The position numbers and the translations under genes are program-made. From UHGV virus genome UHGV-0280597: a stretch of 16,951 nt of DNA. One strand, given 5' to 3'. Source of the DNA: a virus. This document shows positions 6,486-9,503 of the stretch, piece after piece (position 1 is the first letter of the stretch; each line of letters opens with the position of its first letter). A model generated the notes under the pieces. That model made no database searches, was not told where the DNA came from, and worked only from the letters and a program-made list of their open reading frames with translations.

Positions 6486-6851
6486 TTACTTAACCAATGA
6501 TGCTGCATATTCGATAAGGTAAAGCTTTGGAGCCAACCAAATTTTTAGCCAGTCGAAATAATTGAAGAAAACAACAATAGAAGTAATCGCTATTCCTGAT
6601 GTGAAAAGTATCGATAAAATAACAATATCCGCATCATCTCCTTTATTGCATGCCAAAATCATCAGATAAACACACGCTATAATCACCAATACACAGAGAG
6701 CCTGAATTCCAGCTGATGATACGGCGTGCCACATCAAAAGCTGATGGATGACATCAGGAATCTGTGCCTGGCTAAATGAAACAGCCGCGTCTATTCCATT
6801 GCTGGCTTTTTGCAGTAGTTCTACGAGAATCTTGTTTGCTTGTTCTTCCAT
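6486..6851 (-). CDS. hypothetical integral membrane protein (about 3 predicted TM helices), 121 aa
   Basis: ORF-track ORF; ATG at 6851 preceded by AAGGTG; hydrophobic segments ALCVLVIIACVYLMILA, IVILSILFTSGIAITSIVVFF; flanked by terminator-like hairpins on both sides; located in the sieB/ral neighbourhood next to N. Confidence 0.6.
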   Translation of the reverse strand: MEEQANKILVELLQKASNGIDAAVSFSQAQIPDVIHQLLMWHAVSSAGIQALCVLVIIACVYLMILACNKGDDADIVILSILFTSGIAITSIVVFFNYFDWLKIWLAPKLYLIEYAASLVK

Positions 6852-7170: not shown

Positions 7171-7470
7171 TCAAATAAGTGGTTTGCTGCCTAATTTCAT
7201 TTTCTGGCGACCAACACAAGTCACACCCATTTCACTGCGTGGCTTGCGGTAGTAAATACGGTTCTGTTTACTCTCGACTTCTTCTGCCTTCTTGCAGCGA
7301 AGGCTTCCGAGTGATGCTGCTTTATCTGCTCTGACGCAACCAGAGAGCTTTAGCGCAATTTTTCGCGCCAGTCGCTGCTCTTGCATTGCCTGTTCACGTT
7401 GAGCCTGTCTGCGTGCTCTGCGGCGATTTCTGGCGTTATCGTCAGCCAGATATGTAATGACTACTGTCAT
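7171..7470 (-). CDS. N: N-like transcription antitermination protein, 99 aa
   Basis: ORF-track ORF; GGAGG 5 nt upstream of the ATG at 7470; N-terminal arginine-rich motif (NARNRRRARRQAQ); C-terminus RKPRSEMGVTCVGRQKMKLGSKPLI resembles the lambda N C-terminus (recall); nut sites found in both operons. Confidence 0.8.
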   Translation of the reverse strand: MTVVITYLADDNARNRRRARRQAQREQAMQEQRLARKIALKLSGCVRADKAASLGSLRCKKAEEVESKQNRIYYRKPRSEMGVTCVGRQKMKLGSKPLI

Positions 7471-7782
7471 GTTGACCTCCGATGAAACAACTTTGGAATT
7501 TTTTTATTACAAAGTTGTTTCCATCCCCGCCAATTAGACGGGGATGGAAGAGCATTTATGAGCCTTTATGGACTCTGCTCGATCAGTTCTATTTAATTAA
7601 TCTCTCAATTGAATGTAAGTATTCACATAAATCCTCCTACCTCTTGTGCAGCTTTCTTGAATATGGTGGCGGCTGCATAACGCCTATGGAATTGACTTTG
7701 GCGGTGACGCGCCGGGTGCTTATCTTCCGGTTGCCGTCGTGCAGCTGCACTTCACGTCACCCCAAAGCCAACTACTCTTTGG

Positions 7783-7825
7783 TTCCCGCATTTCGGCGGG
7801 ACAATCCCATCAATGTTAAAGAGCC
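7783..7825 (-). promoter_or_regulatory. nutL (boxA-like GGCTCTTTAACA plus boxB hairpin)
   Basis: Minus-strand reading GGCTCTTTAACA-12 nt-TCCCGCCGAAATGCGGGAA; the boxB hairpin is identical to the one at 9479-9497 downstream of cro. Confidence 0.7.
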
Positions 7826-7872
7826 TACCAATCTGTTCCGTTTGGCTACCAGCGTCCTGCTGATGGCTAAAG

Positions 7873-7956
7873 AATACTGTAGGTATTTTATTGTGTAAAT
7901 ACCCAAGGTATTTATTTTGGTGAAATAATGATAAGCAAATGAATACAAAGGATATT
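7873..7956 (-). promoter_or_regulatory. OL operator cluster (three AATAC-N5-GTATT sites) with candidate pL
   Basis: Palindromic sites at 7873-7887 (AATACtgtagGTATT), 7898-7912 (AATACccaagGTATT) and 7942-7956 (AATACaaaggATATT); same motif as OR; candidate leftward -35/-10 (TTTACA-17-TATTCT) overlaps the first two sites. Confidence 0.6.
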
Positions 7957-8042
7957 TATTTTTTCGGTGTCTGCTTGTTCAGTGCTTTTTATGCGGGATA
8001 TGTGAAGTGGATCCCGATAGCTATTGCTGCCGGGATTATGGG

Positions 8043-8411
8043 TTAGTCAGCGAAGGTTAAGACGAGAATTACCTTAATGATGTCTGCTACAACAGACACG
8101 GCCATAGATAAACCAAAGACGATCCAAGCCATAGAGATGTCTTCACTACCATCGTATAGAGTTCCGTAATCACTGGTGTAAGGCGTAAATGTCGCGCCTT
8201 GATACAACAAGTATAAGCTTGATCCATAGAGGATAAATGCAGATATCCCTTGTATTGCTATGATCACTAGAATCATGAAACGAGCTGATCTATGCGCCCA
8301 AGCCTGGCTTATTTTTTCTGATAGAGATTTCGCAATAAAAGCATGCGCTAAGCCGTAAATTGTCGAGATTGCCAACATCCCCAAAAAGCTTGCTATAGCG
8401 GTTCCAACCAT
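8043..8411 (-). CDS. hypothetical small integral membrane protein (about 3 TM helices) in the rexAB slot, about 122 aa
   Basis: ORF-track ORF 8043..8432 (TTG start); more likely ATG at 8411 preceded by AAGGGG; begins 17 nt after the cI stop on the same strand with no intervening terminator seen; strongly hydrophobic segments. Confidence 0.6.
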   Translation of the reverse strand: MVGTAIASFLGMLAISTIYGLAHAFIAKSLSEKISQAWAHRSARFMILVIIAIQGISAFILYGSSLYLLYQGATFTPYTSDYGTLYDGSEDISMAWIVFGLSMAVSVVADIIKVILVLTFAD

Positions 8412-8428
8412 AATCGCCCCTTGCGTGA

Positions 8429-9145
8429 TCAAACCAGCCTTAGTTTTGTCTCAATTGCAACGCCTATAATCTTGCAGTTTCCATTGATTGGCACGAGAGG
8501 CCATGCAGGGTTAAGTCCCTTGAGGTATTTATTTCCGCCGTCGATTATCAGCTTCTTGAATGTTGCTTCGTTAGAGTCAGAAAGTTTTGCTATGACCAAG
8601 CTGCCGTTGATCGCCTCCCTTCCGGTATCGAAAAGAACGAATGTTCCCTCTGGAATGCTTAACCCAACCGGTGCCGTCATTGAATCACCTTCCACTTTAA
8701 GCCAGAACGCATTACCTTGAATATGCGCGTCAGACTCAAGCCAAACATCTATGTCTTTAATGGTGTATGGTTCGCATGCTTCACACCACGAGCCAGCCTG
8801 GATACTGCTTAACACCGGATACCTCTTTCCTGCTCTGTATTCCCCTGCATACCTTACGTTGGCATCGCTCTTAAGGCTTTCTGCCTGTTCTGCAACCTTG
8901 GCAGCAATTGACTGGCTAAAATCAGCAATTGAGACTTGCAACAATCGTGCAAAACCAGATGCAACCTCAACGTTTAGCGCGTTTCTGCCATTAAGATAAT
9001 GCCCTACCGCTCCTTGGGTGATACCCAGTTCATCAGCGATTGAGTATTGGGTTATTCCCAATTCTTTCTTTTTTGACTCATACAAAGCCTTAAGCCGCTT
9101 AGCGTCTTCGAGCTGTTCTGTCGTCAGTGATTTTTTATTTTCCAT
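8429..9145 (-). CDS. cI: CI-like prophage repressor (HTH N-domain plus LexA/S24-type autocleavage C-domain), 238 aa
   Basis: ORF-track ORF; N-terminus MENKKSLTTEQLEDAKRLKALYESKKKELGITQ parallels lambda CI (recall); GDSM serine motif in the C-domain; divergent from cro across a 106-bp operator region; no Shine-Dalgarno before the ATG (leaderless-type start). Confidence 0.9.
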   Translation of the reverse strand: MENKKSLTTEQLEDAKRLKALYESKKKELGITQYSIADELGITQGAVGHYLNGRNALNVEVASGFARLLQVSIADFSQSIAAKVAEQAESLKSDANVRYAGEYRAGKRYPVLSSIQAGSWCEACEPYTIKDIDVWLESDAHIQGNAFWLKVEGDSMTAPVGLSIPEGTFVLFDTGREAINGSLVIAKLSDSNEATFKKLIIDGGNKYLKGLNPAWPLVPINGNCKIIGVAIETKLRLV

Positions 9146-9151
9146 AGCTTA

Positions 9152-9220
9152 ATTCTAATAGCTAAGGTACTTAAACTAAAAATACCCTGAGTATTGATTG
9201 CTTTGAATACCTGTAGTATT
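9152..9220. promoter_or_regulatory. OR operator region (three sites) with pRM/pR
   Basis: Sites 9206-9220 (AATACctgtaGTATT) and 9181-9195 (AATACcctgaGTATT) are perfect; 9157-9171 (AATAGctaagGTACT) is degenerate; spacing 24-25 bp; minus-strand TAGAAT (plus 9152-9157) sits 6 nt upstream of the cI ATG. Confidence 0.65.
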
Positions 9221-9251
9221 CTTTGTTCATGGTTAATAACGGAGAGTGCAT

Positions 9252-9446
9252 ATGATTCGAATGACACTTGCCGATTACGCCAAAATCCATGGACAGGCTA
9301 AAGCAGCCAGTGACTTTGGTGTAATCCAGTGCGCTATCAGCAAGGCCATTCTGGCAGGCCGTAACATCATGGTTACGGTAAAGCCTGATGGCAGTGTGAT
9401 TGGAGAGGAAGTTCGTCCTTTCCCAAGCAACAAGAAAAACAAATAG
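9252..9446 (+). CDS. cro: Cro-like repressor, 64 aa from the ATG at 9252
   Basis: ORF-track ORF 9246..9446 (GTG); ATG at 9252 preceded by GGAGAG; sequence [62 protein letters not shown] parallels lambda Cro (recall). Confidence 0.85.
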
Positions 9447-9452
9447 TAACAC

Positions 9453-9497
9453 CGCTCTTTAACAGTCATGGTCCTCATTCCCGCCGAAATGCGGGAA
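9453..9497 (+). promoter_or_regulatory. nutR (boxA CGCTCTTTAACA plus boxB hairpin)
   Basis: CGCTCTTTAACA at 9453-9464 followed after 13 nt by hairpin TTCCCGC-CGAAAT-GCGGGAA (9478-9497); same boxB as nutL. Confidence 0.7.
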
Positions 9498-9503
9498 TAC
9501 AAC

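What the first reader, a model, noticed from the sequence alone, without database searches (positions are those of the whole stretch)
8043..8411. Uncharacterised 3-TM membrane protein in the rexAB slot, apparently co-transcribed with cI
The gene starts 17 nt after the cI stop on the same strand, has its own AAGGGG ribosome-binding site, and I see no terminator between cI and it. In lambda this slot holds rexA/rexB, an abortive-infection system expressed from pRM in the lysogen. Here it holds a single ~122-aa protein with about three hydrophobic helices and no recognisable family, a prime candidate for a prophage-encoded exclusion or abortive-infection function.
Basis: partly seen in the sequence, partly recalled or inferred. 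Interest (0 to 1): 0.75.

Follow-up and report, generated by a model that had tools for sequence, protein, structure and literature searches.

The report
HkaS: repressor-linked prophage membrane protein
This is a real, conserved gene (hkaS, first listed in coliphage HK620 in 2001) for a small three-helix inner-membrane protein that follows the prophage repressor gene and is almost certainly made with it in lysogens; its function has never been tested, and blocking other phages at the membrane is the best guess.

Summary
A 122-aa ORF (8043-8411, minus strand) starts 17 nt after the cI stop codon. It has an AAGGGG ribosome-binding site and no terminator or promoter in between. It encodes three transmembrane helices.

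It is not unknown to databases. It is hkaS of phage HK620 (96.7% identical, annotated "unknown") and matches PHROG 6534 over its full length. It has no Pfam, NCBIfam, PADLOC, PDB or fold relatives, and no detectable relation to RexB or SieA.

- The family is tiny: one 50%-identity cluster among 1.84 billion representative proteins, all from Enterobacterales lambdoid or P22-like prophages.
- Every copy I examined lies 17-20 nt after a cI-type repressor and is followed by a hairpin.
- It is under purifying selection (dN/dS 0.13) and shares cI's synonymous divergence.
- It was intact in 80 of 80 viral contigs. It occurs in 146 of 5,426 complete E. coli genomes, the same count as its cI.

Downstream of related repressors in other species the slot is empty or holds unrelated genes, as expected for the known cI-N mosaic hotspot that also holds rexAB and bstA.

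The architecture is therefore well supported. The anti-phage function remains a positional inference with no direct evidence. It is an already catalogued orphan gene and a tractable candidate, but not a surprise.

The parts
8043..8411 (-). hkaS: 122-aa inner-membrane protein with three transmembrane helices. Predicted topology is N-terminus in the periplasm and C-terminus in the cytoplasm.
   Evidence: ORF and translation. It is 96.7% identical to HK620 HkaS and matches PHROG 6534 over its full length. Hydropathy and the AF2 model at pLDDT 91.6 give three helices. Loop 28-44 carries net +3 to +5 and loop 71-91 net -1 to -4 in six divergent homologues. dN/dS is 0.13.
8412..8428 (-). 17-nt cI-hkaS spacer carrying the Shine-Dalgarno sequence AAGGGG.
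   Evidence: Sequence. Spacers of 17-20 nt with AAGGGG, AAAGGA, CAAGGA or CAGGGA at the same distance occur in all orthologous loci. The spacer is too short for a terminator or promoter, and the scan found none.
8429..9145 (-). cI repressor (238 aa), HK620 immunity type; the first gene of the inferred operon.
   Evidence: Pfam HTH_3 plus Peptidase_S24. It is 99.6% identical to HK620 cI.
9152..9157 (-). Candidate pRM -10 hexamer TAGAAT. It would start transcription at the A of the cI ATG (9145), giving a leaderless cI as in lambda.
   Evidence: Read from the sequence. The cI start lies 10 nt from OR3 in both HK620 and lambda. That this is pRM is inference by analogy and was not tested.
8011..8036 (-). 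GC-rich hairpin 7 nt after the hkaS stop codon; best candidate for the 3' end or terminator of the cI-hkaS transcript. It lacks a U-run in this window.
   Evidence: RNA fold -14.1 kcal/mol, z = -3.0. A hairpin occupies the same position in all five divergent loci despite unrelated sequences. In the Buttiauxella locus it is a canonical terminator followed by UUUUUAUU.
7871..7957 (-). OL operator palindromes (7941-7957, 7897-7913, 7872-7888) and pL (TTTACA 7899-7894, TATTCT 7876-7871). These form the downstream boundary of the slot.
   Evidence: Promoter scan. Mapped from the HK620 annotation of OL1-3, pL and tIMM. The block is conserved across divergent loci.

Best explanation
hkaS is an accessory ('moron') gene of the HK620-type immunity region. 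It is transcribed with cI from the maintenance promoter (and from pRE during establishment), translated from its own strong ribosome-binding site, and inserted in the inner membrane as a three-helix protein with its N-terminus in the periplasm and its C-terminus in the cytoplasm.

Shown here:
- The gene is real and under purifying selection.
- The protein has membrane character and a consistent predicted topology.
- Tight linkage to cI is conserved, with no intervening signals and a hairpin after the stop.
- The family is an orphan.

Inferred:
- It is expressed in the lysogen.
- Its job is to protect the lysogen from other phages by acting at the inner membrane. I favour a constitutive block of incoming DNA or ejection-protein passage (superinfection exclusion, like P22 SieA, HK97 gp15 or T4 Imm) over a triggered suicide response. 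The reasons are that it is a single small protein with no sensor partner and that it must be harmless when made continuously.

The confidence figure refers to the anti-phage function. The gene, membrane and operon part I rate at about 0.85-0.9.
For: Architecture:
- A 17-nt gap with an SD, no minus-strand terminator or promoter.
- The HK620 record places tIMM, 'termination of cI transcript', after hkaS.
- A hairpin follows the stop in five divergent loci, canonical in one.
- The geometry matches lambda cI-rexA-rexB-OL.

Linkage and selection:
- 146 of 5,426 complete E. coli genomes carry hkaS and 146 carry this cI, with 147 places each and adjacent wherever both lists show the same strain.
- Orthologues at 82%, 60%, 54% and about 55% identity all lie 18-20 nt after a cI-type gene.
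- dS is equal for the two genes (0.75 against 0.74) and dN/dS is 0.13.
- 80 of 80 viral-contig copies are intact.

Membrane protein.

Position:
- The cI-N interval is a published hotspot that holds rexAB and bstA, transcribed from one of the most active prophage promoters (PMC8585504).
- Downstream of 80 related repressors the slot is empty or holds unrelated cargo.

Independence from immunity specificity: the Buttiauxella copy follows a repressor with a different DNA-binding domain and a different cro. HkaS is therefore not tied to one operator set.
Against: - There is no functional datum of any kind.
- There is no similarity to any characterised exclusion or defence protein: PADLOC none, RexB 0.3% and SieA 0.25% hhalign probability, and only generic helical bundles from fold searches.
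- The invariant residues (Q36, W38, H40, A43, R44, F45, D110, K113, VLTFAD-COOH) cluster at the cytoplasmic face rather than the periplasmic side. That does not particularly favour an entry block.
- The post-gene hairpin in this window lacks a U-run, so the transcript end is uncertain.
- Position in a hotspot is a weak predictor, because such slots also carry non-defence cargo.
Confidence: 0.4

Rival explanations
1. RexB-like abortive infection. HkaS would be a latent pore or ion-channel former that depolarises the membrane when an infecting phage triggers it, killing the cell before the phage matures.
For: It occupies the same slot and the same transcript position as lambda rexB (PMC8585504). 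It is a small multi-helix membrane protein with polar and charged residues inside helices: Q54, and an invariant D110/K113 pair in TM3. The conserved cytoplasm-facing motif could receive an intracellular trigger.
Against: There is no rexA-like sensor gene. The slot holds one gene, bounded by cI and OL. There is no homology to RexB. The protein has three helices where RexB is a 144-aa protein reported as an ion channel. No PADLOC effector model matches. Only 17 cytoplasmic loop residues are available for sensing.
Confidence: 0.15
2. A function other than defence. HkaS might modulate host membrane physiology or the phage's own lysis-lysogeny circuitry. Because it is also on the pRE transcript, it could act on a membrane protease such as FtsH/HflKC that controls CII. 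It could also give the lysogen a fitness trait unrelated to phages.
For: It is retained with the cI C-terminal domain across deep divergence, at the same dS as cI. It persists even when the DNA-binding domain and cro are swapped. The invariant residues lie on the cytoplasmic face. Slots like this also hold lipoproteins and other non-defence-looking cargo.
Against: Related cI genes at 64-76% identity lack hkaS altogether, so it is dispensable for repressor function and for lysogeny. No motif or homology points to a protease partner. This reading is speculation from position and topology.
Confidence: 0.2
3. A hitch-hiking or decaying ORF with no present function, kept only because it lies between cI and the operators, which must be inherited together.
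For: Tight physical linkage inside the immunity cassette. The protein evolves about four times faster than cI (dN 0.098 against 0.022). A few database variants have a frameshifted N-terminus that destroys TM1 (P0005, P0008, P0009).
Against: dN/dS is 0.13 at dS 0.75. Length is an invariant 122 aa with no indels across homologues 52-100% identical. 80 of 80 viral-contig copies are intact with conservative changes only. The SD and the post-gene hairpin are conserved.
Confidence: 0.05
4. A lytic-cycle membrane protein (holin or antiholin-like) transcribed from an unrecognised promoter rather than with cI.
For: Three helices with the N-terminus out and the C-terminus in is the class I holin topology (established knowledge).
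Against: It sits in the immunity region, not the lysis cassette. A lambda-family holin is annotated at the lysis position in a prophage carrying the identical gene. There is no holin Pfam or PHROG match, no charged C-terminal tail, and no promoter-like site upstream on its strand.
Confidence: 0.03

Closest known systems
HkaS of coliphage HK620 (AAK28867; PHROG 6534)
   Same: It is the same gene: 96.7% amino-acid identity, the same 122-aa length, and the same position 17 nt after cI and upstream of OL/pL. It is also present in HK630, HK140, mEpX2, HF4s, HZ41, phi296, phi367, 611R6 and two Stx2c phages.
   Different: There are only a few conservative substitutions. Nothing is known about function; the record says 'unknown'.
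Lambda RexB (with RexA), the abortive-infection system downstream of cI
   Same: The slot (between cI and OL), the strand and the presumed pRM transcript are the same. Both are small multi-helix inner-membrane proteins (PMC8585504).
   Different: There is no sequence or profile similarity (hhalign probability 0.3%). There is no RexA partner. HkaS has three helices and 122 aa, against 144 aa for RexB.
P22 SieA, HK97 gp15 and T4 Imm: inner-membrane superinfection-exclusion proteins that block DNA entry
   Same: Each is a small phage-encoded inner-membrane protein, sufficient alone and harmless when expressed constitutively (SieA: PMC10883804; gp15 and Imm from my own knowledge). This is the mechanism I favour for HkaS.
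   Different: There is no similarity to SieA (hhalign probability 0.25%). sieA has its own promoter in the immI region. gp15 and Imm were not compared directly; no PHROG other than 6534 was hit.
BstA (Salmonella prophage BTP1)
   Same: It is a single gene immediately downstream of the prophage repressor, presumed to share its promoter, and is highly expressed in lysogens. Its synteny with cI is conserved (PMC8585504).
   Different: According to that paper BstA localises to sites of phage DNA replication and carries its own anti-BstA DNA element. HkaS is a small integral membrane protein, and no PADLOC model matched it.
HK022 Nun
   Same: It is an exclusion function encoded in the immunity region of a lambdoid phage and expressed in the lysogen (Oberto et al. 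1989, seen in the reference list; details from my own knowledge).
   Different: Nun is a soluble RNA-binding transcription terminator, not a membrane protein.

Membership tests
HkaS / PHROG 6534 | Full-length sequence match to the family profile and to HK620 HkaS | tested here: met
   phrog_6534 E 1.1e-78, residues 1-122 on profile positions 1-122. 96.7% identity to HK620 hkaS.
HkaS / PHROG 6534 | Position immediately downstream of a cI-type (HTH plus S24) repressor on the same strand | tested here: met
   Gaps of 17-20 nt in the window, HK620, HK140 and the Hafnia, Salmonella, L013 and Buttiauxella loci, and in IMG/VR copies.
Lambda RexAB | RexB homology | tested here: not met
   hhalign of the HkaS profile against lambda RexB gives probability 0.3%. 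No PADLOC or Pfam hit.
Lambda RexAB | Two-gene system with a cytoplasmic RexA sensor | tested here: not met
   Only one conserved ORF lies between cI and OL. The small opposite-strand ORF at 7939-8046 is not conserved.
Lambda RexAB | Located between cI and OL on the cI strand and transcribed from pRM | tested here: inconclusive
   The position and the lack of intervening signals are met. Transcription itself is not testable here.
P22 SieA | Sequence or profile homology to SieA | tested here: not met
   hhalign probability 0.25%.
Superinfection-exclusion membrane proteins (functional class) | Blocks DNA entry of superinfecting phage when expressed alone | not testable with these tools
   This needs plating, adsorption and DNA-entry assays.
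Known anti-phage defence systems (PADLOC-DB v2.0.0) | Match to any defence protein model | tested here: not met
   0 families at E <= 1.
Class I holins | Three transmembrane helices with N-out/C-in topology, a charged cytoplasmic C-terminal tail, and a location in the lysis cassette | tested here: not met
   The topology is similar. However, the C-terminus ends two residues after TM3, the gene lies in the immunity region, and there is no holin family hit.
Lysogen-expressed moron in the cI-N hotspot | Variable cargo at this position among related phages | tested here: met
   Of 80 loci with cI relatives, one carries hkaS. The others are empty or hold unrelated ORFs. The hotspot is described in PMC8585504.
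Lysogen-expressed moron in the cI-N hotspot | Expression in the uninduced lysogen | not testable with these tools
   No transcriptome data are available here, and no paper was found.

The most novel reading that the evidence does not exclude
HkaS would be the founding member of a new single-protein, three-helix inner-membrane anti-phage family with no sequence or fold relative. It would work without a separate sensor, either plugging the inner-membrane step of DNA delivery or acting through its invariant cytoplasm-facing motif (W38, H40, R44, D110, K113, C-terminal TFAD). It would travel with the repressor's C-terminal domain across immunity types.
Probability: 0.3. Interest if true: 0.6.

Novelty: new member of a known kind. 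Interest (0 to 1): 0.4.

Why it matters
The interval downstream of the prophage repressor is transcribed continuously in lysogens and has yielded RexAB, Nun and BstA. HkaS is an uncharacterised occupant of that slot. It is present in about 2.7% of complete E. coli genomes, including Stx-converting phages, and in easily handled model phages (HK620, HK630, HK140, mEpX2, some of which grow on K-12). If it excludes phages, it would add a new minimal membrane-acting protein family, which matters for phage-therapy host range and for prophage competition. If it does not, it is one more orphan moron. Either way the gene was already annotated, so the gain is a sharpened, testable hypothesis rather than a discovery.

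Tried and rejected
1. Homology to known families. Pfam gave only sub-threshold hydrophobic matches (Cation_ATPase_C at 19 bits against a cutoff of 27, and TssN). NCBIfam and PADLOC gave none. I rejected these as compositional.
2. Distant relatives. A profile search of 1.84 billion representatives returned only the family itself, one fragment, and a 5,949-aa YD-repeat protein. A nine-times-repeated motif in that protein, ATFQTYSSGYTTLYEWKG, resembles HkaS residues 71-96. I treat this as a short-motif and repeat-summed artefact.
4. Direct profile comparisons with lambda RexB and P22 SieA were negative.
5. A second gene in the slot. The 35-aa hydrophobic plus-strand ORF 7939-8046, convergent with hkaS, is not conserved in the Salmonella locus. 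I rejected it as a gene.
6. My early idea that the periplasmic loop is the most conserved part, which would favour an entry block. I dropped it after adding the Buttiauxella and P0012 sequences, because the invariants cluster at the cytoplasmic face.
7. The tIMM site of the HK620 record. It maps onto an AT-rich, operator-like palindrome at 7941-7957. The GC hairpin at 8011-8036 is a better candidate for the 3' end.
8. Literature. 'hkaS' alone returns only herbarium acronyms. Combined with HK620 it returns nothing, and no paper on HK620 lysogen transcription or mEpX2 exclusion mentions the gene.

Full report
**1. What is there**

On the minus strand, cI (238 aa; HTH_3 plus Peptidase_S24) occupies 8429-9145 and ends with TGA at 8431-8429. 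Seventeen nucleotides later (TCACGCAAGGGGCGATT), an ATG at 8411 opens a 122-codon frame that stops at 8043.

The ORF listing extends the frame to a TTG at 8432, giving 129 aa. Comparison with orthologues shows that the ATG is the real start. All of them keep a purine-rich Shine-Dalgarno sequence 6-9 nt upstream, and the Salmonella orthologue has an in-frame TAA immediately before its ATG.

The consensus scan finds no terminator-like site on the minus strand between 7100 and 9500. The only minus-strand promoter-like site is pL (TTTACA-17-TATTCT, 7899-7871).

**2. Identity**

The region is the HK620-type immunity region. Window 7400-9500 is 96-99% identical to HK140, HF4s, mEpX2, HK620, HK630, phi296/phi367 and two Stx2c-converting phages.

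In the HK620 GenBank record the ORF is hkaS, product 'unknown'. That record annotates a terminator, 'tIMM; termination of cI transcript', downstream of hkaS and just before OL3. The operon reading was thus already made by the annotators in 2001.

The protein is 96.7% identical to HK620 HkaS and matches PHROG 6534 ('unknown function') end to end at E 1e-78. RefSeq calls the identical gene WP_000233129.1, 'hypothetical protein'.

The window as a whole is a mosaic E. coli lambdoid prophage segment. No phage record covers more than half of it.

**3. It is a real gene, and a membrane protein**

Selection was measured against the Hafnia orthologue (82% amino-acid identity):

| Gene | dS | dN | dN/dS |
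|---|---|---|---|
| hkaS | 0.75 | 0.098 | 0.13 |
| cI (same pair) | 0.74 | 0.022 | 0.03 |

The two genes have therefore diverged together as one block. HkaS is under purifying selection but changes about four times faster than the repressor.

All 80 copies recovered from IMG/VR are intact at 122 aa. They form 24 alleles that differ by conservative changes such as L10F, I50V, I51M and S93T/M94V. Homologues from 52% to 100% identity align without a single indel.

Hydropathy gives three segments, 1-27, 43-70 and 92-120. AlphaFold2 on a six-sequence alignment gives helices 2-29, 31-38, 41-74 and 89-121, with a short hairpin at about 78-86, at mean pLDDT 91.6.

In six divergent homologues the 28-44 loop carries net +3 to +5 and the 71-91 loop net -1 to -4. 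By the positive-inside rule this puts the N-terminus in the periplasm and the C-terminus in the cytoplasm.

The invariant residues are Q36, W38, H40, A43, R44 and F45 at the cytoplasmic start of TM2, and D110, K113 and the C-terminal VLTFAD in the cytoplasmic half of TM3.

**4. How wide is the family**

It is very narrow.

- The word-indexed search of 5.8 billion proteins found 11 clusters, from E. coli, Hafnia, Salmonella and metagenomes.
- A full HMMER profile search of 1.84 billion 50%-identity representatives found one genuine representative, one fragment, and a giant YD-repeat protein that matches only a short repeated motif.
- There is no Pfam, NCBIfam or PADLOC family, no PDB sequence relative, and no fold match beyond generic helical bundles.
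- Direct profile comparisons with lambda RexB and P22 SieA are negative, at probability 0.3% and 0.25%.

**5. Linkage to the repressor**

In 5,426 complete E. coli genomes, hkaS occurs in 146 genomes (147 places), and this cI also occurs in 146 genomes (147 places). All are chromosomal, and the two genes are adjacent wherever the same strain appears in both listings.

The Hafnia-type (82%), Salmonella (60%), L013 (54%) and Buttiauxella (about 55%) homologues all lie 18-20 nt downstream of a cI-type repressor and roughly 350 nt upstream of N.

The Buttiauxella locus is informative. Its repressor has a completely different N-terminal DNA-binding domain and a P22-type cro, but the same S24 C-terminal domain followed by hkaS. 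HkaS therefore travels with the 3' half of cI, not with an immunity specificity, so it is not tied to one operator set.

The converse also holds. Of 80 species genomes carrying cI relatives at 40-76% identity, only that one has hkaS. In the others the downstream slot is empty or holds unrelated ORFs, including putative lipoproteins, a four-helix membrane protein, and soluble proteins of 100-400 aa.

This is the behaviour of a cargo hotspot. It agrees with the published description of the cI-N interval as a mosaic hotspot that houses rexAB in lambda and bstA in BTP1-like prophages (PMC8585504).

**6. Transcript architecture (inferred)**

Upstream of cI, the spacing between the start codon and OR3 is 10 nt in both HK620 and lambda. 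A TAGAAT hexamer lies at 9152-9157, six nucleotides before the A of the cI ATG. This mirrors lambda pRM, whose transcript is leaderless (established knowledge).

If that holds, cI would be translated without a ribosome-binding site while hkaS has a strong one.

Downstream, a GC-rich hairpin (8011-8036, -14.1 kcal/mol, z = -3.0) begins 7 nt after the stop codon but has no U-run. A hairpin sits at the same place in all five divergent loci, although the sequences are unrelated. In the Buttiauxella locus it is a textbook intrinsic terminator, AACCCGGA...UCCGGGUU followed by UUUUAUU.

I take this as evidence that the transcription unit ends immediately after hkaS. The efficiency of termination in this window is unknown.

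The site labelled tIMM in the HK620 record maps to an AT-rich palindrome (7941-7957). It matches the operator consensus AAATAYC-N4-GTATTY and is conserved with the operators, so it may be an operator rather than a terminator.

**7. What it most likely does**

Nothing in the sequence or structure names a function, and I found no publication on the gene. The argument rests on position and protein class.

The position is a continuously transcribed slot known for exclusion and abortive-infection genes (lambda rexAB, BTP1 bstA, HK022 nun). The protein class is a small integral inner-membrane protein encoded alone.

Characterised phage proteins of that class, namely P22 SieA (PMC10883804), HK97 gp15 and T4 Imm (own knowledge), mostly block DNA entry. 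Such a mechanism needs no sensor and is compatible with constitutive expression.

My estimates are as follows:

| Reading | Probability |
|---|---|
| Anti-phage function, all forms (includes the next row) | about 0.4 |
| RexB-like triggered depolarisation (within the anti-phage figure) | about 0.15 |
| Non-defence or regulatory role | about 0.2 |
| Functionless passenger (unlikely given selection) | about 0.05 |
| Lytic-cycle holin-like role | about 0.03 |

An entry block is the favoured form within the anti-phage figure.

The cytoplasm-facing cluster of invariant residues is mildly awkward for a pure periplasm-side plug. It keeps both the triggered-depolarisation and the regulatory rivals alive.

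**8. Novelty and verdict**

The feature is genuine and correctly described, but it is an already annotated orphan gene in an already recognised hotspot. Finding an unknown membrane protein there would not surprise a specialist.

What this analysis adds:

- strict co-inheritance with the cI C-terminal domain across immunity types;
- equal synonymous divergence for the two genes;
- purifying selection on hkaS;
- a positionally conserved terminator-like hairpin;
- a consistent topology;
- a defined set of invariant cytoplasm-face residues;
- formal exclusion of relatedness to RexB, SieA and PADLOC models.

It is a good, cheap experimental candidate because model phages carry it. I score interest at 0.4.

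Noticed in passing
window 7939-8046 (+): A 35-aa strongly hydrophobic ORF (MNTKDIYFFGVCLFSAFYAGYVKWIPIAIAAGIMG) lies convergent with hkaS and overlaps its stop codon. It superficially resembles a type I toxin. It has no clear ribosome-binding site, and the frame is not conserved at the equivalent place in the Salmonella locus L003.
   Followed up: partly
window about 7471-7680 (-), between nutL and N: An insertion of about 200 bp relative to HK620, shared in diverged form with HK140. It contains AGGAGGATTTATG followed at once by a stop codon, and a strong hairpin CCATCCCCGTCTAATTGGCGGGGATGG just upstream of the N ribosome-binding site. It might be an N-leader regulatory or processing structure. 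HK140 annotates a 41-aa ORF there.
   Followed up: no
window 6486-6851 (-): A second small membrane protein (121 aa, about 2-3 hydrophobic helices) lies in the pL operon downstream of N. It matches PHROG 3054 (unknown function) and gives only weak sub-threshold PADLOC '2TM effector' hits at E about 0.01. It is another uncharacterised candidate accessory gene.
   Followed up: no
L041 2507-3543 (uncultured Buttiauxella sp.): A domain-level mosaic in the repressor. The N-terminal DNA-binding domain and a P22-type cro are unrelated to the window's, joined to a closely similar S24 C-terminal domain plus hkaS and a canonical terminator. This implies a recombination joint inside cI.
   Followed up: partly
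proteins P0005, P0008, P0009 (database variants of HkaS): These variants start at the upstream TTG and carry a frameshifted N-terminal stretch of about 30 residues that abolishes TM1, then return to frame. P0005 is on four contigs, including a 687-kb E. coli assembly. They could be natural truncation or frameshift alleles, or assembly errors.
   Followed up: no
protein P0014 (5,949 aa, metagenomic YD-repeat protein): It contains nine copies of a unit beginning DADIASATFQTYSSGYTTLYEWKG, which resembles the HkaS periplasmic loop QGATFTPYTSDYGTLYDGSE. This is probably a chance short beta-hairpin motif amplified by repetition.
   Followed up: partly
window 7941-7957 (-); HK620 record 7901-7931: The site annotated 'tIMM' in the HK620 GenBank record is an AT-rich palindrome matching the operator consensus AAATAYC-N4-GTATTY, and it is conserved together with OL1 and OL2 across divergent loci. 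It may be the true OL3, or a fourth operator, rather than a terminator.
   Followed up: partly
L016-L095, downstream of cI relatives: Cargo in the repressor-downstream slot of other Enterobacterales is diverse. It includes 135-aa signal-peptide or lipoprotein-like proteins shared by Citrobacter and Erwinia loci (L078, L069), a 260-aa four-helix membrane protein in Tatumella (L019), a 122-aa three-helix zinc-ribbon protein in Ewingella (L086, unrelated to HkaS), and several 250-400-aa soluble proteins. None was characterised.
   Followed up: no
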